A stretch of 64,000 bases of DNA from a virus. Its lineage: Duplodnaviria; Caudoviricetes. How positions within the stretch are numbered: position 1 is the first letter of the stretch; each line of letters starts with the position of its first letter. Shown one piece after another: positions 1,809 to 54,889 of the stretch. The notes under the pieces were generated by a model. The model did not search any database and was not told where the DNA came from. It saw only the letters and a program-made list of their open reading frames with translations. The stretch is taken from IMG/VR virus record IMGVR_UViG_3300031951_000008, one strand, 5' to 3'. The position numbers were made by a program, and so were the translations under genes.

Positions 1809-1813
1809 ATGAA

Positions 1814-1883
1814 TGGTCGGAAGTCGGAGGTATTAGACAGGGTGACAAGCCTAGATTCGCAGGTTCGATTCCTGCCCGGCCAT
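1814..1883 (+). tRNA. tRNA-like element with atypical D and anticodon arms (anticodon ambiguous: ACA or GAC)
   Basis: 7-bp acceptor TGGTCGG/CCGGCCA, canonical T arm GCAGG-TTCGATT-CCTGC, D-like GTC...GAC with GG; anticodon stem mismatched; no encoded CCA. Confidence 0.55.
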
Positions 1884-1910
1884 TTACTTCTATTACAAGG
1901 AATTTAAATT

Positions 1911-21088: not shown

Positions 21089-21517
21089 TTAGGCCGTTGT
21101 ATTATCAGTCCTTGTTTCTTGTTCAAGAGAGGCCAAAGGAAGAGGCTCTTTGGATATCGTGATGGTGCCTGTTCCTGCAAGCCCACAACACTGGTGGCCC
21201 GGATTGCAGCAACATTTTATATCTGGCTCAATGTATCTAATAGTCGCTGTACCCTCGTGGTCAGTATATCCTGTTATTTTTCTATCATCGATTTCGATAT
21301 CGTATTTAAAGTTATGTGCTGCTCTGCCTCTATACCATACACTTATTACCGTCTCCCATCCCATGATCCCACCAGCCGGTACTGGTTGCTTCATACCTAG
21401 CATAGGCACTGTCCGCATGGCATTGTACACTTTTATGCGATAGTCGATATCGCCATACTCGGCAAGAATGTAACGGTGCTTCGCTAAAGCCACGGTTTTA
21501 GAAGGGGGAGTCGTCAT
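21089..21517 (-). CDS. hypothetical protein with Cys cluster
   Basis: 142 aa; CCCNPGHQCCG. Confidence 0.6.
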   Translation of the reverse strand: MTTPPSKTVALAKHRYILAEYGDIDYRIKVYNAMRTVPMLGMKQPVPAGGIMGWETVISVWYRGRAAHNFKYDIEIDDRKITGYTDHEGTATIRYIEPDIKCCCNPGHQCCGLAGTGTITISKEPLPLASLEQETRTDNTTA

Positions 21518-22304
21518 ATGCCTTACTTACGGCGGCAGGAACGCGACGCTTTCGTATGCGTTTGCGTCTTTTAAGTTGACCACCCTTTACTAGCTCAGGC
21601 TCGTCGTAATAATATGAATCATTATACATCTCCCGATTTGCCCGCTCCTGAGCATATGGAGTGGAGCCTTCCCACAATGGGTCTATTAAAACCAATTGTC
21701 CATTGGCTCTATACATCAAATTATTTTCATGTAGATCTAATACACCAGGAATATTATTTTGTTTTAGCAAGTATAGACCTTCTGCTACATTCCGAATATT
21801 AGGATCTTTTAGTCGACGCTCTACCAGAGCGAATGTTTCTGACATCGAATCTACGTCAGATATAGTCGACTTCCCACTAATGCTTTGAAAAATTAGGTCT
21901 ATGTATTTATCTAAGAAATTAACCGTTCGGCGGTGATCATCCCAATCTTTTGGCTCATACAATCTCTCGATTCGAGCGACATAGACCTTAGACCATCTTA
22001 GAGTTCTAGTCCATCTTGGGACTACCGATTTAGGTGGGCCGTAAATTTTAGGGAAGGACACATGAGGATGAGAATATGCGAATCTAATGAATTTTAGGTA
22101 AATGTCGTCTTGTGGGAATAATTTTATCACATATGGCCAATCAGGATGATATAATACTTGTCCATACCTTCCTTCGCCTAGAAGCTGTCCGCCGTCAGCT
22201 TCAAACTTGTCGACTAGCTTCCACCATGTAAGATGATCATTAGCCGGATCAGACAAAAGGTCTTTTGGAGCCCCAAAGCCCTCTATGATGTATGACAGTT
22301 TCAT
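21498..22304 (-). CDS. protein kinase-like (PKL fold) protein with putative head-targeting leader
   Basis: LLGEGRYGQV G-loop, YVIKLF, DLHENN catalytic loop, LIDP; N-terminus MKLSYIIEG; basic C-tail. Confidence 0.7.
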   Translation of the reverse strand: MKLSYIIEGFGAPKDLLSDPANDHLTWWKLVDKFEADGGQLLGEGRYGQVLYHPDWPYVIKLFPQDDIYLKFIRFAYSHPHVSFPKIYGPPKSVVPRWTRTLRWSKVYVARIERLYEPKDWDDHRRTVNFLDKYIDLIFQSISGKSTISDVDSMSETFALVERRLKDPNIRNVAEGLYLLKQNNIPGVLDLHENNLMYRANGQLVLIDPLWEGSTPYAQERANREMYNDSYYYDEPELVKGGQLKRRKRIRKRRVPAAVSKAYDDSPF

Positions 22305-24814
22305 TATGTCACTTCTAGCTGACCGTACGAAAATTCAGAGAACAATGATATCTGAGTTCTTACGTCCATTCTTCGTACAGTTGCGCCAGGCCAAAGTCTC
22401 GCACCGAACTTACCGAATGATCTATTTGGATCGTAGTCGATTGGGAAGTAAGGAGTTTGTACATTGACAGGTGTTGGAAGGCTCGCACTCAGAACAGAAC
22501 TAGGTGGGACGAGGAGCTGGTTCCACCAGATCCACAGTTGACTTTCTCTTACCATTATTTCTAAACGATTCCAATATTCGCTCTGAGACCCACCTATCTG
22601 AGCACCACCGTCGTAGACGACAAACCCTTCTGGTGTAGCAGAAGGCTGAGAGCCTATACCAGAGTAAGTGCCAGCTTGTGAGTAGATTCCGCTCACAGCA
22701 TATCCTGGAGCGAGACCACGGACAAAGTCGTCGACATCATCGAGTACGTCCTCTTCATAAGGCAGAGACATGTCCAAATGGCCGACTTTGAACTGGACAT
22801 CAACTACCTGCGAAGATTCGTTATATGAAAATTCTGCTCTTACGATAGTAGCTGAATATTCTTGGTGTAGTAATTCGACAATGTCTCCTACTTCACCAGG
22901 ATAGGGCAAGTTGTTACTTACTCCTCCGATTAGTACGATGGTGTCACAGCCACCGGGCAGATTTGGCGGGTTTGTGAAGTCAGTTATGTCCGAACCACCT
23001 AACCCTGTCCCTTGTGTCTCTTGTAAAGAGGTCGGGAACATTAGTTTACGCTTGTAATTATAGATAACATTTTGATTGCTATAAGGATACAAGCATCTTA
23101 AGGCACCAAATTGCGGAAGATCGTGGAAATGTGCACCGCAAACTCTCACGTAATGGCTGCCGTCTTTCAGAATACCTTTACCTATCACTCTCAGGTATTT
23201 AGTAGTAGTTTCATCAATAGGTGCCCTAATTAAGATATCGTACGGCGTAAAGTTAGAGCTAGACGGGCGACCGATATCTAGCCTCAGCTTAGCGTTGCAC
23301 AGATTCTTACGATTCCATAAGTATACCGGTCTCTCACTAAAGTCGGTCGGAGCCTCTGTAGAGGCTACTACCTTAAGGCCGGGCAGATCTGTATCGATAA
23401 TCGCTCTATGCTGGAGGCTTATATCTGCCTCTTCTGTACCGCCAGTTGAAGCCACGTCGTAGCTCAACAATGGATCATCATATCCGGTCAGCCCCCACAA
23501 TGTTTGACTAAATTCCCTGATAGCTGAGACCTGTTCTGCGCTGGTTTTGTCTTCGCTTCCAGCCCCCGGCGGCAGTTCTTCTCTCGCTATATCGACATCA
23601 CCAAACTGAGTCTGGCCTACCCACGTCCAAACGTGGTTTGGATTGAGTGTCGGCTTCTTAGAGAAATAATATCGCAGTATGGGTTGCCCTGATACTTCAG
23701 CGATCTTGAAGAACCATAGCTCCACTAGAGAGCCAATAGGCAGTAGGTCTATTGAAGCATCTAAGATCAGTGATTGAGGATTCGCCCCTGTAGATGGATT
23801 TTCTGGGTTAATATATTGCCATACGTTTTTAGCTGAGAATGGATCGCCAACAGCAGCATTCTTATCGACATTCCATTCCCGACAAGTATAGAGATTTGTA
23901 GAGAGGATAGAGCTAGTATAATCGACAATCACGGCCATCTTCTTAGATATTAAATGGCCTTTATACAACAGGCTGCCGAGCATGTTGGAGTTAGGCTCCA
24001 TGCTCAGGTCAAAGCGTGTTAAATTACCATCTGCGTCTTTGCCTGTAAACCAAACATTCTCTACTTTGCCGCCAGCACCTGGGGACATGGCCCAACCGAT
24101 TTCGGTTTGTAAGCTATTGAGTTGATTCCTTTTAAGTACGACTTCAAATTCGGCAGTGCCAGGAGCTATCGTGTCATCATACCTTTTAAATATAAGTGAC
24201 GGATACTTGCCCTTATTATTAAGAGTCGCACTTGGGTTGTTTGGGTCGGCTATAGTTGTCTCAGGGAACAGATGGATTTTAAGCTCCCCATAGGCATTAA
24301 CACCAGGAAGCTTACCACCGCACGATGGTGGTCGTATACTAGCAATATCTGTCTCGTCTTGAATCCAGTATATCTGAGTGCATTCTTCGCATGCACAATT
24401 TAGTGGGATTGGACTATCGACGGTAAACCTGACTACGTTACCAATCCGTTCTAAGCTGATAAACTCGGTTCCGGCAGCAAGGATTATGTCACCTTGCATC
24501 CAGCCACCGTCGTCTGGGAATCCTGCTCCTTGAAATCCTAACACTCCTAGCCTTGTTTGCAGTAAGGCATCAAGTTTGCATTTGTCATCAGGTGCCATTA
24601 GTCCAGGCGTTTCGCAAGTAGCAGATGGTATTGGGTCTTCTGCTATGTGAGAATGGCCGTGAAAACTGGGGAAGATAACCTGAGATTCCTTGAAGTACAA
24701 AGCTCTCTGTTGTTCATCATAGGAATAACCTGAGGTTATTCTATTAGGGCCTTCTACTTGAATAAACTGACCGTCCAAAAGGACTTGATGCTGCGGTATT
24801 TTGGTTATAGCCAT
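22304..24814 (-). CDS. putative virion structural (tail) protein
   Basis: 836 aa, acidic and beta-rich; ATCETPGLMAPDDKCKLD fibre-type motif; CACEEC. Confidence 0.55.
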   Translation of the reverse strand: MAITKIPQHQVLLDGQFIQVEGPNRITSGYSYDEQQRALYFKESQVIFPSFHGHSHIAEDPIPSATCETPGLMAPDDKCKLDALLQTRLGVLGFQGAGFPDDGGWMQGDIILAAGTEFISLERIGNVVRFTVDSPIPLNCACEECTQIYWIQDETDIASIRPPSCGGKLPGVNAYGELKIHLFPETTIADPNNPSATLNNKGKYPSLIFKRYDDTIAPGTAEFEVVLKRNQLNSLQTEIGWAMSPGAGGKVENVWFTGKDADGNLTRFDLSMEPNSNMLGSLLYKGHLISKKMAVIVDYTSSILSTNLYTCREWNVDKNAAVGDPFSAKNVWQYINPENPSTGANPQSLILDASIDLLPIGSLVELWFFKIAEVSGQPILRYYFSKKPTLNPNHVWTWVGQTQFGDVDIAREELPPGAGSEDKTSAEQVSAIREFSQTLWGLTGYDDPLLSYDVASTGGTEEADISLQHRAIIDTDLPGLKVVASTEAPTDFSERPVYLWNRKNLCNAKLRLDIGRPSSSNFTPYDILIRAPIDETTTKYLRVIGKGILKDGSHYVRVCGAHFHDLPQFGALRCLYPYSNQNVIYNYKRKLMFPTSLQETQGTGLGGSDITDFTNPPNLPGGCDTIVLIGGVSNNLPYPGEVGDIVELLHQEYSATIVRAEFSYNESSQVVDVQFKVGHLDMSLPYEEDVLDDVDDFVRGLAPGYAVSGIYSQAGTYSGIGSQPSATPEGFVVYDGGAQIGGSQSEYWNRLEIMVRESQLWIWWNQLLVPPSSVLSASLPTPVNVQTPYFPIDYDPNRSFGKFGARLWPGATVRRMDVRTQISLFSEFSYGQLEVT

Positions 24815-24840
24815 TTTTTCGCCCTGAAAGAAGATTTGTT

Positions 24841-24852
24841 ATTTAAGATTTG
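24841..24852 (-). promoter_or_regulatory. candidate promoter motif CAAATCTTAAAT
   Basis: Upstream of the 24814 start, second CAAATCTT at 24838-24831; same first 11 nt as 43004. Confidence 0.4.
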
Positions 24853-24874
24853 AATTCACGGATATATAGTTTAG

Positions 24875-26476
24875 CTACCATATAAAGAAATAGTTAGGTT
24901 CTTGAAAATAATTGGTAACTACTTTCGCTATATGTTTGGGTTCATATTTCTGCCTATAATTGTCTTTAAGAGCAGCAGGCACTAACACTATTATAGTTTT
25001 AGCACAATGCCTATATTCGAGTGCGTCTAGAATCTTAAGCTCTACATAGTCATATCTAAAATCGTGGTCATATATTACTGCGTCGACCTTTCCATTGAAT
25101 GCTTCATAATTAAGGCCAATAAAGCTGTCGAACCCTAGGTCTACGGCTTTGTTAAATCTTCTATCATCAAGATGAACATAAGTACAGCCAGCGAGAGATG
25201 CAGCAATGGCCCGTGCCCCAGTCCCAGTATGCAAGTCTAATATTTTGCCCTTTATGTTAAGTCTTTGAAATAAGTATCTGTATGTCGACGGATTAGGAGT
25301 TTTAAATGTGAACCTATGATGGTTTCGTCTTGTTATAGCTTTTACTAAGTGGTGATAATCGAATGGATTGCTTGAGCCTATCATGTCTCTAATGACTGAG
25401 AAGCATACATCTGGTTTCTTTAATACTCTGTCATATATTTCCGACATGTCGAAAAAATGCTGCATAATATACCGACCAGGAGCTTTTGCTATACTCGCCA
25501 TGAAGCAGCCTTCTTTTATATAATCCTTCTCCCTCGTCTTTTTCAATAGCTCTAAATCTTCTTGTATAACATTATCTGGAAATAGTGGCCAAATATATCC
25601 TCGCTTATTTAGCATATAATTATATTGATGTACCGCTAAATCACGTTCCAGCTTTGTCGCATTGTTCAAATCCTTTCTAGGAATCATTATATGTGCTGGA
25701 TAGGGGTTATGACCCGTAAGATCAGCGTATTGCTCTATTATAGGTGGTACATTGTTTATCTTCCAGTCATCCAAAGACATAGCTGAAAATCTATAAACAG
25801 CGACTTGGTTATCCTTAAAAGTAACAGCAACCTGGGCCTTGGTGATTTTTATACTTTTGACGTGTGGATGGTCTCTCAGCTTCTTCAGGGCTACCTTGTA
25901 GTTAAATGACAACTGCCGCTTAGTATTATGCTTTAGATATCTCACCCTTTTCGGGATATTAAACTTAACTAGCCAATCAGAGAATTTGGAATTGGATATG
26001 CCAGCTAATTTAGCACATTGCCTCTCCGTGAGACCTAGTTCTACATAGTGCTTATGACACCACGCCTTAGTACAATTCGGGTTTTTAGACTTATTGCCGA
26101 ATTTAGGCACTCCAAGCTTTCTCAATATTCTGTGTATCAAAACGTGAGAAATTCCAACTGCTCTTTGAACCGCCTTTACTCCATAACGCTGTGTATTTTC
26201 CGTCAGCCACTCTTTAGTTCTCCAATTAGCAGGGACTTCACCGATTTCTTGTTTAATGGAAATAGGCCTTTTCTTGGTCTTTGGCCTATTGCCCTCTATG
26301 CCAGCCAATTTTCGTAGCTTACGGACTGAAGCTGTCGACATACCGATAACCATTGCATGATCTGCTACTGACAAGTATGAGTGAGATTCAAACCATTTCC
26401 GCAGACTAGCTGGGTCTTTTTTGTTTACACGTTCGAACTGTTTACGCAGTCGCGAGTATTCTGAATCAATTATCAT
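24875..26476 (-). CDS. multi-HTH protein fused to a degenerate DNA methyltransferase-like domain
   Basis: HTH-like repeats (MSTASVRKLRKLAGI; LTERQCAKLAGISNSKFSDWLVKFNIP); motif I-like ILDLHTGTGARAIAA; no recognisable SPPY/DPPY. Confidence 0.5.
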   Translation of the reverse strand: MIIDSEYSRLRKQFERVNKKDPASLRKWFESHSYLSVADHAMVIGMSTASVRKLRKLAGIEGNRPKTKKRPISIKQEIGEVPANWRTKEWLTENTQRYGVKAVQRAVGISHVLIHRILRKLGVPKFGNKSKNPNCTKAWCHKHYVELGLTERQCAKLAGISNSKFSDWLVKFNIPKRVRYLKHNTKRQLSFNYKVALKKLRDHPHVKSIKITKAQVAVTFKDNQVAVYRFSAMSLDDWKINNVPPIIEQYADLTGHNPYPAHIMIPRKDLNNATKLERDLAVHQYNYMLNKRGYIWPLFPDNVIQEDLELLKKTREKDYIKEGCFMASIAKAPGRYIMQHFFDMSEIYDRVLKKPDVCFSVIRDMIGSSNPFDYHHLVKAITRRNHHRFTFKTPNPSTYRYLFQRLNIKGKILDLHTGTGARAIAASLAGCTYVHLDDRRFNKAVDLGFDSFIGLNYEAFNGKVDAVIYDHDFRYDYVELKILDALEYRHCAKTIIVLVPAALKDNYRQKYEPKHIAKVVTNYFQEPNYFFIW

Positions 26477-26484
26477 TGTAAGTA

Positions 26485-27555
26485 TTAACAGTGAATGAGG
26501 CTGACGGACTCAGTTATGTATCTTCCCAGCCTCGGCGAGTAGTATGTTATTACTGATTCTTCTAATTCTTCGTCTGTAGTGTTAATAGATATTGGTTCTT
26601 GCGGTGCTAGTTCTTCTTGTGGTGGCAATTGTTGTGCTGATTGTGATGGTTGTACTGGTGCTTGTGGCTCTAGTAATTTATCTTCATCGGGGGCTTTAGG
26701 ACGCATTAATTCTTGTTGGTTCTCTCGCCTTTCTTGCTCGAAGTCTCTTCTATTAGACGTTTTTTGCTGAGCTAGTGGCGGGGCGGCTTCTTTTCCTTTA
26801 TCAGCTTGGATTTCTGGGCCAATCTGATCTGGTGGTAGTTCTGGTGCCAGGCCAGGTACCTGTCGCCTTCTCAAGTCTTTAGCAGCTTTAACAAGAGGGA
26901 CATCTTCTCGACGTTCTACACCAGATGTAGAGTTATCATATTCAGCATCTTGCTTTTCTTTGTTAGCCATTTGCATTTCGGGAGAGTTAGGATCTGCGGC
27001 TGGAGCTTGCTGTAATTTTTGAACAGTATCATCTAACTCCTGCCTCATTTGCTGAAGATCCTGAGGATACTTGGGTTGTGCGTCCTGCGTTCTTTGATCC
27101 TTCGACTTGAACATGCTACTTATCTTATTCTTTACCCAATCCTTAGCGGTCTTCATTATACCATACTTAGGATACATTACATCCGTATCAACGCCACGTA
27201 TATAGGCAGCGTTGTAGGTTCTATAATAATTAGCGAATATATCCGGCAGTAATCTCTTACCCAAATGATAGCGTCGATATAAATTGCCAGCAGCCATAAT
27301 CTTAGGCAGTTCTTTGGCTAACTCTGTATATTGCTTTTGGGTGAGATAATTAAGGTTAATTCCGCCGACAAGATTATTTCTGGTGGTCGGATGGCGATAT
27401 GCCCCTAATAGTAGAATATCAGGATTTGGGTCATTGTTGAAGTTACTGTAATCGAACTTCCATCTCGGACCCTCTCCGTCCTCACAGAGGACTACCTCGG
27501 CTAGTATCTCTCTAGCTTCATTTAAAGAGATGGTAACAAGGTCTTCGTATTTCAT
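26485..27555 (-). CDS. internal virion protein with T4 gp2 (DNA end protector)-like domain
   Basis: DPNPDILLLG...GGINLNYL...YYRTYNAAYI resembles the gp2-family pattern; SLNE leader; low-complexity Q/P tail. Confidence 0.45.
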   Translation of the reverse strand: MKYEDLVTISLNEAREILAEVVLCEDGEGPRWKFDYSNFNNDPNPDILLLGAYRHPTTRNNLVGGINLNYLTQKQYTELAKELPKIMAAGNLYRRYHLGKRLLPDIFANYYRTYNAAYIRGVDTDVMYPKYGIMKTAKDWVKNKISSMFKSKDQRTQDAQPKYPQDLQQMRQELDDTVQKLQQAPAADPNSPEMQMANKEKQDAEYDNSTSGVERREDVPLVKAAKDLRRRQVPGLAPELPPDQIGPEIQADKGKEAAPPLAQQKTSNRRDFEQERRENQQELMRPKAPDEDKLLEPQAPVQPSQSAQQLPPQEELAPQEPISINTTDEELEESVITYYSPRLGRYITESVSLIHC

Positions 27556-30035
27556 ATGCTACGAATTATAGCCGCATTTTTCAAAACTAGCTGCCTAGAT
27601 TCGTTGATGCTCTTTGGCCGCTTAATTGAAACGAGATAGTCATTGCCTGCGAAGTGGTTATCTTCGCAAGCTATTTGTGCTGCTATATTTACATATGGTA
27701 TAGCATCGTGTGAGAATTCAAGTACGGCTTCCCGACCTTCTGTCTGTAGTATGCCCATACCATTGGCAGTATTAATGAATGAGTGCAAAGCTGCTTCCGT
27801 AGGCATAGTCAAGATTGCTTTAATTGGCTTTCTTGAGAATGGTATTCGTATGTCGTACCGTCTTCTGCATTCGTTAAGTGCTCTATCGAGCCTCGCAGCA
27901 ATGAGACGCGATGCGTTCTGTAGAAGCATAAAGTCTACCGCGTCCATTGACTCTAATATCGGTAACTCTTTGGCTAAGTAACTCTCAGCAAATCCCTCGG
28001 CTTTAAATCGATTTAAGTTGCTGGTAGCCGCAGCTATTCTGAGCTTCATCAAGCCGTTCAAGTATGCAGTGCTGACTGCCTTGTTTGAAATGGCTGTATC
28101 AGTTTTCTTAGAGATATCGACTTCCTTGCCGGTTCTCTTGTCGATGTACGTAGACTTCATACCAGGTGCTTCAGCTTTGGCGGACCTAGCAGTCTGGATG
28201 CCTAACTGTTCGAATTCCTTTACTTCCGCAGTCATTTCGTCCTGAATCTCTTTGGGATGCATCTGTGGATAATCACGCCGAGTCCATATAGAGTGCCAAA
28301 GTTCTCCGGATGGTGTTGGCTCGATCTCAGGGTCTTCGTTGGGAGACCACCAGCCAACAGCATCTCTAGGCTTGGATAGATTAGATCTTGTAACGCCCTT
28401 ACCAGGATATTGGCTTGCGATCTTACCTAAATGCCGCAATACGAAACGGAATTCATTAGCCGACATCGGGCCGCCTATCTTGGCAATACCAGATTGTTGC
28501 CATGGCTGCGATTCTGCTGCCGTGGGCTTCCTGGTCTCAGCCCCTAAATCTAGAGCTATTTGATTAAGCTTAGGCGATTTGGCGATGATGCCGGATAAAT
28601 TGTAATTCAATGCGATCTGCAGCAAAACATTAAGCCGGTCAGCTGCTTCTCGTCCTGCTAGTGTGAATTCTACTTCGGAGTCTTCGTCGGCTTGAGTGAA
28701 GTATTTGCTCTCTAATGATCGACCAGACTTCGCTTCAACGTCTTGCTTATTACCCAGATCGTCTTCTACATCGAGGCTACTAACACCCTTTGTTAGATTG
28801 ACGGCTCTAGTTTCGCCTTCGTAGGAGCCACTTCCCAACCATTCAGGAGCATCTGGGAAAGTCTTTTTGGTTTTTGCCCAGACAAACTGGCCTGGACTGG
28901 CTTCAGTCCATCGGTAGTATGCAACGTTCTTTCTCGATCCAGTAGATACAGCCTGTCCTAGGCCTGTTGAAGCACCTCTGATCGGGGTTTCTTCTAACTC
29001 GATCTCATCCTGTAGCTGGCGTATACGGGCCTGAGTAGCTTCAATCCTATCCTGGTTTCCACTCTCTAGTGCGTCGGCATAATCCATCGCAATAGCGTAG
29101 ACACGACTTGAGTATTGCTCGAAAGGATTGTCCGGATGCTTATCATAGCTCTTCTTGGTTCGGAAGGGTCCTTTAATTTGATCCGCTATCGCTCTGGCTT
29201 GAACTGGTTTTTTAACGGCTAGCAAAGCATCTAAGCCTTTTAATCCTGTCTTTTGCGATTTTCCACCAATAGTTTGTGTCGCCTCACCGCCTTTTGCCTT
29301 TATGCCTGCTATTGATCCGCCGATGCCGTGTTCTATAGCACCGGCAATATTTCGTGTAACGAAGGATATAAACGCCGACCTGGATTCGTCTACGCCAGGC
29401 TGCATCATCTTTGATAACTCGATCGCTCCATTTTGATAGAGGTCATTTATAAATTGGTTATCGTTACCTCGGCCATATTTTCCGGCAATTTTCTTAGCGA
29501 TGCGGTACAATGGTGCTCCACCCATACTCCCGGCTTTAGGACTGCGGGGATTGGGCTTGTTAGAATATAAAGCATTCATATCACCAGCATAAGCTATTGC
29601 TACCTCGTCTTGCGTCCATTGAGGAGCCGCTCCACCGGGCTGATAACCTGGAGGTGGGGGGTATCCACCTCTGCTCGTCCAGGGCTTAGTCTCATACTTA
29701 GGACTAGCTGTCAGTGGCCCAATGGTATGGAAAAGAACATCTTCAGCATACTGTCTATCGTAACCAGGAGCGTACGGGTCTTTCCAATTTGCACCTGGTA
29801 CAAATGAGGCACCTGGTTTTCTCTTCGCAGTAGGAGTGCTCGTTTGTGACGTAGTAGCAGATGGACCAGCTGCGGCTGGTTCTTCTTCTACTTGATCAGT
29901 CGACTGTTTCGTTTGGTCTTCTGATTCATCGTCATAGATATCAGAAAAATCTACGTTCAATGCTTCATTGATACCGCTAACACGTCTTAATTTCTGTTCT
30001 AAAATCGAATCTAGTGAACCAATAAAACTTTTCAT
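27552..30035 (-). CDS. large sigma-70-like protein with putative head-protease sites
   Basis: Region 2-like PLYRIAKKIAGKYGRG..NDLYQNGAIELSKMMQPGVDESRSAFISFVTRNIAGAI; region 3.2-like VSSLDVEDD; region 4-like MSANEFRFVLRHLG and ISNKAVSTAYLNGLMKLR. Confidence 0.55.
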   Translation of the reverse strand: MKSFIGSLDSILEQKLRRVSGINEALNVDFSDIYDDESEDQTKQSTDQVEEEPAAAGPSATTSQTSTPTAKRKPGASFVPGANWKDPYAPGYDRQYAEDVLFHTIGPLTASPKYETKPWTSRGGYPPPPGYQPGGAAPQWTQDEVAIAYAGDMNALYSNKPNPRSPKAGSMGGAPLYRIAKKIAGKYGRGNDNQFINDLYQNGAIELSKMMQPGVDESRSAFISFVTRNIAGAIEHGIGGSIAGIKAKGGEATQTIGGKSQKTGLKGLDALLAVKKPVQARAIADQIKGPFRTKKSYDKHPDNPFEQYSSRVYAIAMDYADALESGNQDRIEATQARIRQLQDEIELEETPIRGASTGLGQAVSTGSRKNVAYYRWTEASPGQFVWAKTKKTFPDAPEWLGSGSYEGETRAVNLTKGVSSLDVEDDLGNKQDVEAKSGRSLESKYFTQADEDSEVEFTLAGREAADRLNVLLQIALNYNLSGIIAKSPKLNQIALDLGAETRKPTAAESQPWQQSGIAKIGGPMSANEFRFVLRHLGKIASQYPGKGVTRSNLSKPRDAVGWWSPNEDPEIEPTPSGELWHSIWTRRDYPQMHPKEIQDEMTAEVKEFEQLGIQTARSAKAEAPGMKSTYIDKRTGKEVDISKKTDTAISNKAVSTAYLNGLMKLRIAAATSNLNRFKAEGFAESYLAKELPILESMDAVDFMLLQNASRLIAARLDRALNECRRRYDIRIPFSRKPIKAILTMPTEAALHSFINTANGMGILQTEGREAVLEFSHDAIPYVNIAAQIACEDNHFAGNDYLVSIKRPKSINESRQLVLKNAAIIRSI

Positions 30036-30053
30036 TGTTATCTCCCTTGTTAT

Positions 30054-30065
30054 ATAATAAATTTG
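30054..30065 (-). promoter_or_regulatory. candidate promoter motif CAAATTTATTAT
   Basis: Upstream of the AAGGGAG SD of the 30035 gene. Confidence 0.3.
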
Positions 30066-30073
30066 CAGTGGTA

Positions 30074-30727
30074 TTAATGCATCAAATATTTGGCTATGAT
30101 GGCTTCCTCTTCTTCATCTACTGATGACTTGAGGATAGTGTTCTTTGGACCTTTGATGGCTTTGATAACTAACTTAGGACAATTAACTATCGATACAGCC
30201 ATGTTGTTGTGACTAAATTTTTGGATAAGACTTAGTTCTTCATTTTTATCTATATTGTCGTAGTCAATTCCGTTTGGCCTGATAAACATGCATGTGTCAT
30301 ATACAGCTACACCTCTGACCTGATAAGTAGCGTTTCCGGTAATATGACTATACTGAAGAGTTTTTCCCAACATGACCATACTAGCTGGTTCTGCTGCCAT
30401 AGCCTTAGCAAGAGTGCTTAAATAATGAGGCTCGTAATGATAATCAAGTCTGAATTGAGCTATAATTTGCCCGTTCGCGTGAGATAATCCAAAATTTCTA
30501 GCAGTGCCAGCAGGTAGGAAGATCGGTGTATCAATAAGAATGACGTTAGCCTTGGCCGCTATGTTTAGTGTACTAGCTTCATGCTGTGTTGGCCGGTTGT
30601 TGACAATGATCAACTCTTTATAATCATAATCTTGCGATTCAAATCCCTCAATCGCTTTTAATAGCCCGTTATAATCGTTGCCTTTATATATCAGTACACA
30701 TGAGATAAGAGGAATGTCTTGAGTCAT
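30074..30727 (-). CDS. glycosyltransferase family 2 (GT-A)
   Basis: PLISCVL, SQDY..KELIIVNN, GTARNFGLSHANGQIIAQF; DxD degenerate (RLD). Confidence 0.75.
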   Translation of the reverse strand: MTQDIPLISCVLIYKGNDYNGLLKAIEGFESQDYDYKELIIVNNRPTQHEASTLNIAAKANVILIDTPIFLPAGTARNFGLSHANGQIIAQFRLDYHYEPHYLSTLAKAMAAEPASMVMLGKTLQYSHITGNATYQVRGVAVYDTCMFIRPNGIDYDNIDKNEELSLIQKFSHNNMAVSIVNCPKLVIKAIKGPKNTILKSSVDEEEEAIIAKYLMH

Positions 30728-31638
30728 TAGCTTCCTATATAGTCTAGACCACTGGAAATAGCTTTCCAGGCTTCTGAGAATTGAGACACCTCTTTTAATG
30801 TCCCATTATTGTATGATCTTTGTATGTATTCTGACAGCTTAGCGAACCATGGTAACCATTCATCTCTATGTTGTATAGCAGCATCATTGGCTGTCTTGGC
30901 CGCTGAAATTATTTCTGCAACATCGGTAAATTTACCGCTATCGATTTGTGTAGCTATGCTTTTAAATGCGGCGGCTAGTTTTTGTGCGTCTAACTTAATA
31001 TCTTCTTCTTGATTAGTTTCTGTTCTGATAACCAAGTTAGTCCATTCGGCGACAGATTTAGCAAGACCCTCTAATGGCACTGACGGGTTCGTGGGAATAG
31101 GCGGATTAGGCTCTGCTGGCGTTGTAGGTTCAGTAGGATTGGGGTTTATCGGTGTAACAGGCTCATCGGGCCTTCCAACGCTGACTATGACACTCTGAGT
31201 GCTAGACCTCTGTACAACATCGATTATTTTATCATTGTCCTTAACTGTATAAACAAATGATGTCGTAAGGATAACTGTATAATTTGCTGGTGCGGTCCCT
31301 GTTCCAAAAATCGCCCTTGTACCATCAGGCCAAACAAGCAAGTCTCTCTTAGGCAATATTGTCCAGGCGTAGGATATTGAGTGCAAATTGCTGGTCTTAG
31401 TGTCGACGGTCGTATTTAAGACGACTAATTCACCAATATCGATCGGCTTTTCAGCACCCGTGATATTGATCGTTGGTGTTTGGGCCTCAAATGCCGTTAT
31501 GCTGCTAGGTTGGTTTTGCTTTTGTGTGAACCCATTGAATTTCGAATTAGGATTAATCAAATCGAAATTCTGAGCCAAAGCGGACTGTGCCAATGCTGCG
31601 GCACACACCAAAATAAATGCTGCTCTGTACACTGGCAC
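30727..31638 (-). CDS. secreted protein with signal peptide, beta-sandwich domain and Pro-rich linker
   Basis: GTG start after AAGGAG; MPVYRAAFILVCAAALAQSALA signal peptide; PINPNPTEPTTPAEP linker. Confidence 0.7.
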   Translation of the reverse strand: MPVYRAAFILVCAAALAQSALAQNFDLINPNSKFNGFTQKQNQPSSITAFEAQTPTINITGAEKPIDIGELVVLNTTVDTKTSNLHSISYAWTILPKRDLLVWPDGTRAIFGTGTAPANYTVILTTSFVYTVKDNDKIIDVVQRSSTQSVIVSVGRPDEPVTPINPNPTEPTTPAEPNPPIPTNPSVPLEGLAKSVAEWTNLVIRTETNQEEDIKLDAQKLAAAFKSIATQIDSGKFTDVAEIISAAKTANDAAIQHRDEWLPWFAKLSEYIQRSYNNGTLKEVSQFSEAWKAISSGLDYIGS

Positions 31639-31678
31639 AATCTCCTTGACTTATGGATCAATAACTTAAGATCTTGGT

Positions 31679-32041
31679 TTAGAGAGCTTGGGTGAGCAAG
31701 TACTCTAGCAACTTCTCGGCGGCGAACTTTAGGATCGCCTTCCAGTCGATAATAGCTTGTGCAGAAACTCCATCTGCTTGAGCTAACACTTTTTCCATCT
31801 CGGCGAGAGGATCACAGACACTTTGAGCGGAAGCACAATTTCCACCGCAGCAAGTCTCCGGAGCCGATTGGCTGGAAAGGTTGAAGCTAGTCTCGCCAAG
31901 CAAACGACTTTGTGCGTATCCTTGTACAACCCAGAGGTCATGGGCGAATTCGGCTTTTTTACTAGCAATCTCTCCGCTGCGTGCGATATTGATGACATTA
32001 CGTGTCTCTAGAACCGGTAGATCTGCTGGATATGGTGTCAT
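31679..32041 (-). CDS. small protein with amphipathic C-terminal helix
   Basis: AGGAG SD; C-terminus IIDWKAILKFAAEKLLEYLL. Confidence 0.7.
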   Translation of the reverse strand: MTPYPADLPVLETRNVINIARSGEIASKKAEFAHDLWVVQGYAQSRLLGETSFNLSSQSAPETCCGGNCASAQSVCDPLAEMEKVLAQADGVSAQAIIDWKAILKFAAEKLLEYLLTQAL

Positions 32042-53902: not shown

Positions 53903-54889
53903 ATGTACCGTATAGACCCGCATTTACATCTCGGTGGAACTATATTCCCAGACGCTATTTGGGACATATTGCAAATAACAAAACAATACTATTTGGCCAG
54001 TGATCTAGAAGACGTTAAAAAGCAAGTAATGTTTGCCAGCGATGAGCCAAAAGAATTTCATCGATTTCTTAATAAGTTCAGATTATTAGATTCAATAAAT
54101 TGGAATGAACAAGCAATAGATAGATCCATTCAATCTGTTAGCAATTATCTAATAAAGCAGGGTCTTGATTATACTTGGATCGATTTTTCGATCAATAAGT
54201 ACATGGGAATCGGGTGGCATAAACATGAAGCCATACAATTTATATATGATAGGTTTAATACATATATTCCCGATAGATTTGGGCTTGTACTGTCGATTAA
54301 ATACGAGACATCGTTAACCCATCAGATAAGCTATACCAAGCTCTTAGAACACGAAGTATCTGAATTATTATTCGGTATCGACTGGGTCGGAGATGAAGCC
54401 TACTTTGACGGGTCTGTTTATCCTCCGATATTTAAAGAATGGGCAAGTGCTGGTAAGATGGTTAGAGTACATGCCGGTGAATCTCAATTCGCTAATAACG
54501 TGGTGCAGGCTATAAACGCTGGTGCGACCAACGTAGCACATGGTTTTAAGATACTTGGCAATGTATCTGCTATGGATCTTGCCTTGGACAAAGACATAAC
54601 ACTTGACATGTCGCTAATTAGTAATCGCATGACTGGTGTTTTTCAAAGGCTAGACCATCCGATTATTGGGCTACTTAGATATGGTATCAAGACTACACTT
54701 GGCAGTGACGACCCGGTACAATTCGACTCGTCTTTAGACAAAGAGCTAGAGTATGCCTCTAACATAGGGCTGGATAGGCAAGAACTATACAAGATTTCAA
54801 AAACCGCTTTTGACAATACGATACGGTTTTTGAAATCACAGAATAAAGCAATTCCAGCGCACTTAAGATCGATGTCTGCCGGATACTAA
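53903..54889 (+). CDS. adenosine/AMP deaminase-family amidohydrolase
   Basis: HLHLGG, VHAGE, VAHG, GSDDP metal ligands all present. Confidence 0.85.
   Translation: MYRIDPHLHLGGTIFPDAIWDILQITKQYYLASDLEDVKKQVMFASDEPKEFHRFLNKFRLLDSINWNEQAIDRSIQSVSNYLIKQGLDYTWIDFSINKYMGIGWHKHEAIQFIYDRFNTYIPDRFGLVLSIKYETSLTHQISYTKLLEHEVSELLFGIDWVGDEAYFDGSVYPPIFKEWASAGKMVRVHAGESQFANNVVQAINAGATNVAHGFKILGNVSAMDLALDKDITLDMSLISNRMTGVFQRLDHPIIGLLRYGIKTTLGSDDPVQFDSSLDKELEYASNIGLDRQELYKISKTAFDNTIRFLKSQNKAIPAHLRSMSAGY

What the first reader, a model, noticed from the sequence alone, without database searches (positions are those of the whole stretch)
27552..30035. Giant insertion-rich sigma-70-like protein carrying head-protease sites: candidate virion-delivered sigma factor
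Seen: aa ~174-237 (nt 29516-29325) align by eye with sigma-70 region 2 (LVISIAKRY.GRG..EDLIQEG.IGL...FD..RG..FSTYA...I..AI versus PLYRIAKKIAGKYGRG..NDLYQNGAIELSKMMQPGVDESRSAFISFVTRNIAGAI). Downstream in the correct order are VSSLDVEDD (3.2-like, ~28775), MSANEFRFVLRHLG (4.1-like, ~28460) and ISNKAVSTAYLNGLMKLR (4.2-like, ~28060), separated by large inserts. Both termini carry ILE/INE/LNE/AES sites. Established: phage sigmas such as T4 gp55 and SPO1 gp28 are small and made during infection, while packaged transcription machinery is known as virion RNAPs (N4, phiKZ, crAss). Inference: a packaged, proteolytically matured sigma that redirects host RNAP on entry. I know of no described case.
Basis: partly seen in the sequence, partly recalled or inferred. 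Interest (0 to 1): 0.85.

Follow-up and report, generated by a model that had tools for sequence, protein, structure and literature searches.

The report
Giant sigma-like factor of jumbo phages
An unannotated 827-residue phage protein is a greatly enlarged, very divergent relative of bacterial sigma factors that is almost always encoded just ahead of a DNA-end-protector gene in uncultured T4-like jumbo phages, so delivery inside the virion is a serious but unproven possibility.

Summary
The ORF (27552-30035, minus strand) is real and has a good ribosome-binding site. It belongs to a metagenome-only family of about 100 sequence clusters, found on contigs up to 408 kb.

P0001 itself hits nothing in Pfam, PHROGs or Foldseek. 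The sigma reading still holds on five counts:
- Sigma70_r2 is the commonest Pfam hit among close relatives (6 of 19) and passes the curated cut-off in one distant relative.
- A profile-profile alignment puts aa 177-250 on regions 2.1-2.4.
- The AlphaFold model matches six sigma domain-2 structures.
- A separate model of aa 448-732 matches eight sigma domain-4 structures.
- Pfam region-4 hits in relatives map to aa 590-665.

Complete related genomes carry a gp23-type capsid protein and a T4-type prohead protease. No RNA polymerase was detected in them.

Three indirect clues bear on packaging:
- A conserved N-terminal leader ends in [I/L]-x-E in 69 of 82 members.
- The capsid protein of relatives carries the same type of site.
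- The next gene, usually overlapping, is a T4 gp2-like DNA end protector in 10 of 11 loci, including the most distant subfamily.

Verdict:
- Sigma-family factor for host RNA polymerase: about 0.7.
- Virion delivery: about 0.4, untested.

Another first-stage note in this scan flagged this same stretch.

The parts
27552..30035 (-). ORF of the giant sigma-like protein (827 aa, P0001)
   Evidence: 98% identical copies lie on contigs of 324 kb and 110 kb.
30041..30048 (-). Ribosome-binding site AAGGGAGA, 5 bases before the ATG
29964..30035 (-). N-terminal leader (aa 1-24). It is a predicted helix carrying ILE (11-13) and INE (22-24). The family consensus is hydrophobic-hydrophobic-x-[RK]-[LI]-N-[RK]-[RK]-[LF]-x-x-[IL]-x-E. 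This is the candidate capsid-targeting and prohead-protease site.
   Evidence: [LI]xE ends at aa 10-35 in 69 of 82 members.
29784..29963 (-). Acidic, low-complexity linker (aa 25-84), predicted disordered. Present in only a few members.
   Evidence: pLDDT below 50
29526..29783 (-). Conserved N-terminal extension (aa 85-170; WKDP, YDRQxAED, HTIGPLT, PAPxWT). It includes a helix that superposes with sigma region 1.2.
   Evidence: Sigma domain-2 alignments start at model residues 87-108.
29325..29516 (-). Sigma region 2.1-2.3 equivalent (aa 174-237). It includes the DLYQNG core-binding-type motif and invariant F222.
28986..29324 (-). Insertion holding a beta-hairpin and a long helical hairpin (aa 238-350; NPFG and YADALESG motifs). 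The last helix is included in structural alignments to sigma domain 2.
28938..28982 (-). Highly conserved motif IRGASTGLGQAVST (aa 352-366). Role unknown.
   Evidence: G354, G358 and A362 invariant in the main clade
28665..28787 (-). Predicted disordered acidic linker (aa 417-457) with conserved S420-x-D422. Its position corresponds to sigma region 3.2.
   Evidence: The equivalence is inferred from position only.
28017..28667 (-). Sigma domain 4 equivalent with large insertions (aa 457-673). It comprises the 4.1-like helix aa 524-540 and the helix-turn-helix halves aa 594-611 and 650-671.
   Evidence: eight sigma domain-4 chains, Z 4.1-4.8. Pfam region-4 hits of relatives map to aa 590-665.
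27612..27833 (-). C-terminal ferredoxin-like alpha/beta domain (aa 735-808). Present only in P0001 and a few close relatives.
   Evidence: (Z about 7 to many ferredoxin-like domains)
26485..27555 (-). Downstream gene (356 aa, P0120), whose start overlaps the sigma stop (ATGA). It is a T4 gp2-like DNA end protector with its own MK....[LV]xE leader.

Best explanation
P0001 is a very divergent, greatly enlarged member of the sigma-70 superfamily, encoded by uncultured T4-like (gp23-type capsid) jumbo phages in which no RNA polymerase was detected.

Most likely mechanism (steps 1-3 are inferred from homology):
1. Its domain-2 equivalent (aa about 90-360, core aa 174-237) docks on the beta-prime clamp helices of the host core RNA polymerase.
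2. Its domain-4 equivalent (aa about 457-673) docks on the beta flap and reads an upstream promoter element.
3. The acidic disordered linker (aa 417-457) takes the path of region 3.2. The host enzyme is thereby redirected to phage promoters.

Shown here: sequence and fold homology of both domains in the right order, family-wide conservation, and the genomic context.

Second tier, about 0.4: the protein is made together with the gp2-like DNA end protector. It is targeted to the prohead by its conserved N-terminal leader and trimmed after [I/L]-x-E by the T4-type prohead protease. It then enters the next host with the DNA, so that phage-specific transcription can start at once.

The confidence given below is for the first tier.
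For: Sigma homology:
- Sigma70_r2 is the only recurrent Pfam hit in the main clade: 6 of 19 members, best E 5.9e-4.
- It also hits six distant relatives: P0090 at 5.9e-8 and 32.8 bits, over the cut-off of 24; P0108 at 2e-4; P0092, P0101, P0110 and P0097 more weakly.
- Those relatives are tied to the family by hmmsearch E-values of 1e-5 to 1e-25, and their region-2 hits align with aa 174-237.
- hhalign against 26 true sigma factors gives a single hit, aa 177-250 on regions 2.1-2.4, E 1.1e-3.
- A PDB profile search gives sub-threshold FliA, SigA and SigB hits, all on the same profile stretch.

Fold (AlphaFold model, mean pLDDT 79.8):
- An exhaustive structural search lists six sigma domain-2 chains among the top 50 of 48,161: SigB Z 6.9, RpoS Z 6.8, sigma-70 Z 6.4 at rmsd 1.8 and 27% identity, sigma-32 Z 6.2, T4 gp55 Z 6.0, SigE Z 6.0.
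- The model of aa 448-732 (pLDDT 86.7) lists eight sigma domain-4 chains at Z 4.1-4.8 and rmsd about 2-3.7 A. Several alignments span a whole free-standing domain-4 chain.
- Sigma70_r4 and Sigma70_r4_2 hits in P0101 and P0082 map to aa 595-665.

Core binding in silico:
- aa 85-365 with E. coli beta-prime 220-340 scored 0.60, best control 0.00, verdict weak support.
- The mark was reached by 58 of 80 solved complexes and 2 of 110 mismatched pairs. At 0.60 or under, only 7 of those 80 solved complexes reached it, together with both mismatches.
- The runs agree in at least 74% of contacts and the partner's pLDDT is at least 77.
- The score may partly reflect memory of solved sigma-core complexes.

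Dependence on the host polymerase:
- Three near-complete related genomes have a gp23-type capsid protein.
- The Rpb1 and Rpb2 models rang in none; the T7-type model gave nothing over its cut-off (one 12-bit match, E 0.009).

Second tier (packaging):
- The leader with [LI]xE is present in 69 of 82 members, against a motif density of 0.011 per position elsewhere.
- Peptidase_S77 rang in 3 of 3 related genomes, over the curated cut-off in 2.
- Their capsid proteins carry conserved [LI]xE sites, the last just before the conserved mature-type N-terminus.
- The sigma-like to gp2-like gene pair is kept in 10 of 11 loci, including the subfamily at about 20% identity, mostly with overlapping stop and start.
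- T4 gp2 is a head-resident protein that binds DNA ends (PMC3012670).
Against: Against the sigma reading:
- P0001 on its own hits no Pfam or PHROGs family.
- Foldseek finds no sigma for either model.
- All structural Z-scores are under 8, a range in which helical domains can match by common arrangement.
- Region 4 is not found by profile-profile comparison.
- The tryptophan pair of region 2.3 and the region 2.4 residues of sigma-70 are not conserved, so promoter melting as in sigma-70 is not assured.
- The host is unknown, and the only binding test used an E. coli stand-in and gave a weak verdict.

Against packaging:
- No virion data exist.
- A leader profile finds no other protein in three related genomes.
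- The gene is 39-58 kb from the head module.
- No promoter class could be assigned.
Confidence: 0.7

Rival explanations
1. It is a working phage sigma factor but is not packaged. It is made during infection and switches host RNA polymerase to a middle or late gene class, as T4 gp55 or SPO1 gp28 do. On this reading the N-terminal helix has another role, such as autoinhibition like region 1.1 or partner binding.
For: - All the sigma evidence above applies.
- Every characterised phage sigma is of this kind. The one report found of a phage sigma in a virion preparation was judged by its authors to be carry-over (PMC5618024).
- About 20 of 82 members end in a short hydrophobic-acidic tail behind a variable Lys-rich linker. 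This recalls the clamp-binding tail of T4 gp55 (PMC2988020).
- The leader profile finds no second protein with that leader in three related genomes.
Against: - The [I/L]-x-E end of the leader is kept at about 20% overall identity, in phages that have a protease of that specificity.
- The gene is translationally coupled to a gp2-like gene, whose T4 counterpart is a late, head-resident protein. That is an odd place for a factor that must act before late genes.
- Relatives already encode ordinary sigma factors of 257-336 aa.
- No gp45-type or beta-type clamp rang in relatives.
Confidence: 0.35
2. It is derived from a sigma factor but no longer acts as a promoter-specificity factor. It uses the sigma domains only to grip host core RNA polymerase. 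Its role could be to shut off host transcription, or, together with the gp2-like protein, to tether the polymerase to the incoming DNA end.
For: - The best-kept part is the region 2.2-type core-binding motif, while the melting residues of region 2.3 and region 2.4 are not kept.
- Insertions break the helix-turn-helix of domain 4.
- The link to a DNA-end-binding protein is conserved.
Against: - Domain 4 helices, an invariant arginine in the 4.1-like helix and K664 in the recognition-type helix are conserved.
- An aromatic residue at the position of sigma-70 Y430 is kept.
- ECF sigmas and T4 gp55 also lack the tryptophan pair and still work. This last point is my own knowledge, not tested here.
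Confidence: 0.12
3. It is not related to sigma factors. On this reading the helical matches and weak profile hits are chance, and the protein is a structural or other virion component.
For: There is no direct Pfam, PHROGs or Foldseek hit for P0001. All structural Z-scores are under 8.
Against: - Independent methods converge on the same residues and the same domain order.
- One relative passes Pfam's curated cut-off for region 2, and another reaches it for region 4.
Confidence: 0.04

Closest known systems
Sigma-70 family factors with two domains (group 3 and 4 / ECF type, such as SigB, SigE, sigma-32)
   Same: - Domain 2 followed by a flexible linker and domain 4.
- A region 2.1-2.3 sequence pattern with a DLxQxG-type core-binding motif.
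- Region 4.1-type L[ST]xxExRxxIRxxG and a C-terminal recognition-type helix.
- Structural matches at Z 6-7 for domain 2 and Z 4-5 for domain 4.
   Different: - It is two to four times larger (550-950 aa).
- It has a conserved 90-aa N-terminal extension, large insertions after region 2.3 and inside domain 4, and a GASTGxGQA motif.
- The tryptophan pair and region 2.4 are not conserved.
- It carries an N-terminal leader ending in [I/L]-x-E.
- It is below detection by Pfam for most members.
T4 gp55 (late sigma) with gp33 and the gp45 clamp
   Same: - A phage-encoded, extremely divergent sigma domain 2 for host core polymerase, in a gp23-type phage lineage.
- gp55 is among the structural matches (7d7d_F, Z 6.0).
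- Some family members carry a hydrophobic-acidic C-terminal tail like the clamp-binding tail of gp55.
   Different: - gp55 is small and lacks domain 4, whereas this protein has a domain 4 equivalent.
- No gp45-type clamp was found in relatives.
- gp55 is not linked to gene 2. This last point is my own knowledge.
T4 head-packaged proteins with a capsid targeting sequence (IPI-III, Alt) and T4 gp2
   Same: - A short N-terminal leader ending in [I/L]-x-E, the site type of the gp21 protease.
- A Peptidase_S77 protease in related genomes.
- An adjacent gene of the gp2 family.
- Alt likewise acts on host RNA polymerase after injection. That point is my own knowledge; the targeting sequence and gp2 are described in PMC3012670.
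   Different: - No known packaged protein of T4-type phages is a sigma factor.
- The leader here is longer (16-24 aa) and specific to this family.
- Packaging has not been shown.
Virion RNA polymerases (N4 vRNAP, phiKZ and AR9 virion enzymes) and the sigma-like subunits phiKZ gp68 and AR9 gp226
   Same: The idea is the same: transcription machinery is carried into the cell with the DNA. gp68 and gp226 are also divergent specificity subunits of jumbo phages (PMC13282480).
   Different: - Those phages carry or encode the whole polymerase. In these phages the Rpb1 and Rpb2 models rang in none and the T7-type model gave nothing over its cut-off, so the factor would have to use the host core enzyme.
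- gp68 and gp226 belong to non-virion enzymes and show no sequence likeness to sigma.

Membership tests
Sigma-70 superfamily | Domain 2 with regions 2.1-2.3 (Pfam Sigma70_r2) | tested here: met
   - P0001 itself has no Pfam hit.
- 6 of 19 close relatives hit Sigma70_r2 (best E 5.9e-4).
- P0090 passes the cut-off, 32.8 bits against 24.
- hhalign E 1.1e-3 on aa 177-250.
- Six sigma domain-2 chains at Z 6.0-6.9.
Sigma-70 superfamily | Domain 4 with regions 4.1 and 4.2 (helix-turn-helix) | tested here: inconclusive
   - Eight sigma domain-4 chains at Z 4.1-4.8, several alignments spanning a whole free-standing domain-4 chain.
- Sigma70_r4 at 24.2 bits against a cut-off of 24.1 in P0101, and Sigma70_r4_2 at E 0.013 in P0082, both mapping to aa 595-665.
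- hhalign finds no region 4, and insertions split the motif.
Sigma-70 superfamily | Binds core RNA polymerase through the beta-prime clamp helices | tested here: inconclusive
   The in-silico verdict was weak support: score 0.60 against best control 0.00, with an E. coli stand-in. There is no experiment and the host is unknown.
Sigma-70 superfamily | Confers promoter-specific initiation, including -10 recognition and melting | not testable with these tools
   An aromatic residue is kept at the sigma-70 Y430 position. The W433/W434 equivalents and region 2.4 are not conserved. No promoter motif was identified.
T4-type head-packaged proteins (capsid targeting sequence plus gp21 cleavage) | N-terminal leader ending in [I/L]-x-E | tested here: met
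   Found in 69 of 82 family members at the aligned position. P0001 has ILE at 11-13 and INE at 22-24. In a single protein the motif is not significant: 21 of 67 window ORFs carry one.
T4-type head-packaged proteins (capsid targeting sequence plus gp21 cleavage) | Cognate Peptidase_S77 prohead protease in the same genome | tested here: inconclusive
   It rang in 3 of 3 related near-complete genomes, over the cut-off in 2, next to a gp23-type capsid gene. It is not inside this 64-kb window, and the rest of this genome could not be searched.
T4-type head-packaged proteins (capsid targeting sequence plus gp21 cleavage) | Protein present, in processed form, in virions | not testable with these tools
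   No cultured relative was found in 50,697 phage records, and there are no proteomes.
T4 gp2 DNA end protector (the downstream gene P0120) | Sequence or fold likeness to the gp2 family | tested here: met
   phrog_429 is hit in 21 of 30 family members, best E 4.2e-5, with every other family at 2 or fewer. An Atlas structural row is the Phage_T4_gp2 cluster at TM 0.47. P0120 alone gives no hit.

The most novel reading that the evidence does not exclude
The sigma-like protein and the gp2-like DNA end protector are made as a coupled pair. Both are loaded into the prohead and trimmed at [I/L]-x-E, and both are ejected with the DNA end. The first DNA to enter the cell would then arrive with its own promoter-specificity factor for host core RNA polymerase. 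That would be a virion-delivered sigma factor, a takeover route between the injected RNA polymerases of N4 and phiKZ and the injected RNAP modifier Alt of T4.
Probability: 0.4. Interest if true: 0.9.

Novelty: new variant of a known kind. Interest (0 to 1): 0.7.

Why it matters
Sigma factors are among the best-studied proteins, and phage sigmas are thought of as small proteins made during infection. This finding matters for three reasons.

1. It adds a whole unannotated family, about 100 clusters at 50% identity, all labelled hypothetical. It shows that the two-domain sigma scaffold tolerates a doubling to quadrupling in size. It also supplies a missing transcription component for a widespread freshwater lineage of T4-like jumbo phages.

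2. The strict pairing with a DNA-end-protector gene links transcription initiation to the incoming DNA end. That link has not been described before.

3. If the protein is packaged, it would be the first case of a virus delivering a sigma factor to capture the host's core enzyme at the moment of entry. It would also explain how phages without their own polymerase can be independent of host sigma from the start.

Tried and rejected
- Direct family scans of P0001 (Pfam at E up to 10, PHROGs) gave nothing.
- megablast and tblastn of P0001, of the distant relative P0090 and of the conserved 836-aa neighbour against 50,697 phage records gave no match.
- A PDB profile search with the close clade found no sigma. 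With the wider alignment it found only sub-threshold sigma hits.
- Foldseek against PDB found nothing significant for either model.
- hhalign of the C-terminal profile against sigma factors found no region 4.
- The T4 late-promoter word TATAAATA and the word YAAATATA, suggested by another first-stage note, are not enriched in the window. Reading the upstream regions by eye gave no shared promoter motif, so expression timing stays open.
- A profile of the leader found only the sigma-like gene itself in three related genomes, so the leader is not a shared tag by sequence.
- The clamp-tail idea was not supported: no gp45-type clamp, beta clamp or family B polymerase rang in relatives.
- No whole genome is held for the window, and the 324-kb sister contig could not be searched.
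- No RNA holder is listed among sequencing runs.
- ARAGORN finds no tRNA in the window.
- PF26869 (Phage_T4_gp2) is not in the local Pfam copy.
- tblastn of the gp2-like N-domain against phages gave only a chance-level hit.


Full report
THE OBJECT

The finding is one ORF on the minus strand, 27552-30035, encoding 827 aa (P0001). It starts at an ATG preceded by AAGGGAGA 5 bases upstream. It lies in a minus-strand gene run from 21498 to 32041.

Pfam and PHROGs give nothing for it. No cultured phage among 50,697 records holds a relative, by DNA or by tblastn.

It does have relatives in metagenomes:
- A word-indexed search found 21.
- A profile search of 1.84 billion representatives found 99 clusters, all of this family.
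- Contigs reach 324, 310, 354, 356 and 408 kb, so these are jumbo phages.
- The DNA recurs in freshwater metagenomes from several studies.

IS IT SIGMA-LIKE?

The main clade conserves three blocks:
- aa 300-366;
- aa 520-615.

Several tests bear on the sigma reading.

1. Each of 19 close members was scanned against Pfam. Sigma70_r2 is the only recurrent family: 6 members, best E 5.9e-4, with every other family at 2 or fewer.

2. A distant subfamily (520-710 aa, about 20% identity) is tied to the family by hmmsearch E-values of 1e-5 to 1e-25. Six of its members hit Sigma70_r2:
   - P0090 at E 5.9e-8 and 32.8 bits, above the curated cut-off of 24;
   - P0108 at 2e-4;
   - P0092, P0101, P0110 and P0097 more weakly.
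   In the joint alignment these hits lie on P0001 aa 174-237.

3. hhalign of the 82-member family profile against 26 true sigma factors returns one hit only: aa 177-250 on regions 2.1-2.4, E 1.1e-3, 26% identity.

4. A PDB profile search gives sub-threshold FliA, SigA and SigB hits, all on that same profile stretch.

5. The AlphaFold model is confident (mean pLDDT 79.8, with 373 residues at 90 or more). Foldseek finds nothing. An exhaustive structural comparison with 48,161 chains lists six sigma domain-2 structures in the top 50, spanning model residues about 87-361:
   - SigB, Z 6.9;
   - RpoS region 1.2 plus 2, Z 6.8;
   - sigma-70, Z 6.4, rmsd 1.8 A, 27% identity;
   - sigma-32, Z 6.2;
   - T4 gp55, Z 6.0;
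   - SigE N-domain, Z 6.0.
   Each Z on its own is middling. The repeated return of one family, with 17-27% identity for five of the six (gp55 is at 9%), is what counts.

6. A separate model of aa 448-732 (pLDDT 86.7, pTM 0.83) lists eight sigma domain-4 structures at Z 4.1-4.8 and rmsd about 2-3.7 A. Several alignments span a whole free-standing domain-4 chain. They span aa 457-673.

7. Pfam Sigma70_r4 (24.2 bits against a cut-off of 24.1, in P0101) and Sigma70_r4_2 (E 0.013, in P0082) map to aa 595-665.

Profile-profile comparison does not find region 4. I therefore rate domain 4 as likely but not certain.

The 3.2-like motif lies in a predicted disordered acidic linker between the two domains. 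Its position fits. Nothing more was tested.

WHAT DIFFERS FROM ORDINARY SIGMAS

- Size, at 550-950 aa.
- A conserved N-terminal extension.
- An insertion with a beta-hairpin and a long helical hairpin after region 2.3.
- A GASTGxGQA motif.
- Two insertions inside domain 4.
- In P0001 and a few close relatives, a C-terminal ferredoxin-like domain.

The region 2.2-type core-binding motif is the best-kept part. An aromatic residue is kept at the sigma-70 Y430 position. The tryptophan pair and region 2.4 are not kept.

WHICH POLYMERASE?

Three near-complete related genomes (408, 354 and 356 kb) were searched:
- All three have a gp23-type capsid protein.
- Peptidase_S77, the T4-type prohead protease, rang in all three and passed its cut-off in two.
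- Two of the three have ordinary sigma factors of 257-336 aa.
- The Rpb1 and Rpb2 models rang in none; the T7-type model gave nothing over its cut-off (one 12-bit match, E 0.009).

This is the group 2 pattern described for jumbo phages: gp23-type capsid, no polymerase, own sigma factors (PMC7824862). The factor must therefore work with host core enzyme.

An in-silico test paired aa 85-365 with E. coli beta-prime residues 220-340:
- It scored 0.60 against 0.00 for the best control, and the verdict was weak support.
- The mark was reached by 58 of 80 solved complexes and 2 of 110 mismatched pairs. At 0.60 or under, only 7 of the solved complexes reached it, together with both mismatches.
- The runs agree in at least 74% of contacts, and the partner's pLDDT is at least 77.

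Because sigma-core complexes are solved, this shows likeness more than binding.

IS IT PACKAGED?

An N-terminal [LI]xE in a single protein is uninformative: 21 of 67 window ORFs have one. Across the family the picture changes.
- 69 of 82 members have [LI]xE ending at aa 10-35, mostly at aa 15-19.
- It follows a conserved basic amphipathic leader, whereas the motif density elsewhere is 0.011 per position.
- It persists in the subfamily at about 20% identity.
- The lineage has the protease with that specificity.
- The capsid proteins of relatives carry conserved [LI]xE sites, the last directly before the conserved mature-type N-terminus.

The new and strongest contextual clue is the next gene (26485-27555).
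- Its start overlaps the sigma stop, ATGA.
- Its family hits PHROG 429, 'DNA end protector', in 21 of 30 members, best E 4.2e-5, with every other family at 2 or fewer.
- An Atlas structural row is the T4 gp2 cluster at TM 0.47.
- The pair, sigma-like gene then gp2-like gene, is kept in the window, in L001-L005 and in four further loci. Two of those come from the distant subfamily.
- In one genome the single gp2-like gene lies about 10 kb away instead.
- The gp2-like family also has a nearly invariant leader, MKL....[LV]xE.

T4 gp2 is described as a low-copy head protein that binds the DNA ends and protects them from RecBCD. T4 internal proteins are loaded through a capsid targeting sequence (PMC3012670).

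Against packaging:
- A profile of the leader finds no other protein in three genomes.
- The gene is 39-58 kb from the head module.
- I could not assign a promoter class.
- No phage sigma is known to be packaged. The one proteomic detection found was judged carry-over by its authors (PMC5618024).

I put virion delivery at about 0.4.

RIVALS

- An ordinary stage-specific sigma that is not packaged (0.35). About 20 members have a hydrophobic-acidic C-terminal tail like the clamp-binding tail of gp55. No clamp was found in relatives.
- A sigma-derived protein that only grips core enzyme (0.12).
- Chance resemblance (0.04).

NOVELTY

The family is unannotated. It is a new, giant variant of a known kind. 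The conserved pairing with a gp2-like gene is new. Packaging, if shown, would be a new mode of host takeover.

Another first-stage note in this scan flagged this same stretch.

Noticed in passing
window 26485-27555 (-): The 356-aa protein is a T4 gp2-like DNA end protector: an N-terminal domain of about 160 aa followed by a low-complexity Pro/Gln/Glu-rich tail. Its family has more than 150 members at 53-66% identity, with a nearly invariant leader MKL....[LV]xE[SA].
   Followed up: yes
family members P0005, P0013, P0017, P0019, P0023 and others (C-termini): About 20 of 82 sigma-like proteins end in a short motif K-M-[KRQ]-P-[VI]-D-x-[IL]-x-[FI]-[DE] behind a Lys-rich variable linker. It recalls the clamp-binding tails of T4 gp55 and gp33. 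No clamp was detected in related genomes, and P0001 has only a degenerate version.
   Followed up: partly
window 22304-24814 (-): An 836-aa beta-rich protein is 59-71% identical across phages whose sigma-like proteins are only 37-41% identical. It has no Pfam or PHROGs hit. Weak language-model likeness to tail-fibre and minor-tail clusters suggests a conserved virion protein.
   Followed up: partly
window 21498-22304 (-): A T7 gp0.7-like protein kinase (phrog_15752, E 1.7e-9) begins MKLSYIIE, a T4 targeting-sequence-like start. It is not kept at this position in related loci.
   Followed up: partly
window 24875-26476 (-): A 533-aa protein has several helix-turn-helix-like stretches and a C-terminal motif that looks like a SAM-methyltransferase glycine loop. 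It is syntenic with the sigma-like gene in all related loci.
   Followed up: no
window 1809-1910: This intergenic stretch contains a sequence like a tRNA T-arm and acceptor end, but ARAGORN calls no tRNA. It may be a tRNA remnant.
   Followed up: partly
L007 (G002:C1:266688-269870): The ordinary 257-aa sigma factor of a related jumbo phage is closest (about 40% identity) to primary sigma factors of Planctomycetota. One gp2-like homologue is filed under a Dolichospermum bin. These are conflicting host hints, and the host remains unknown.
   Followed up: no
L019, L020, L022 and window 53903-54889: An adenosine-deaminase-family gene (PF00962) lies within a few kb upstream of the sigma-like gene in three distant loci, and is present in the window as well.
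   Followed up: no
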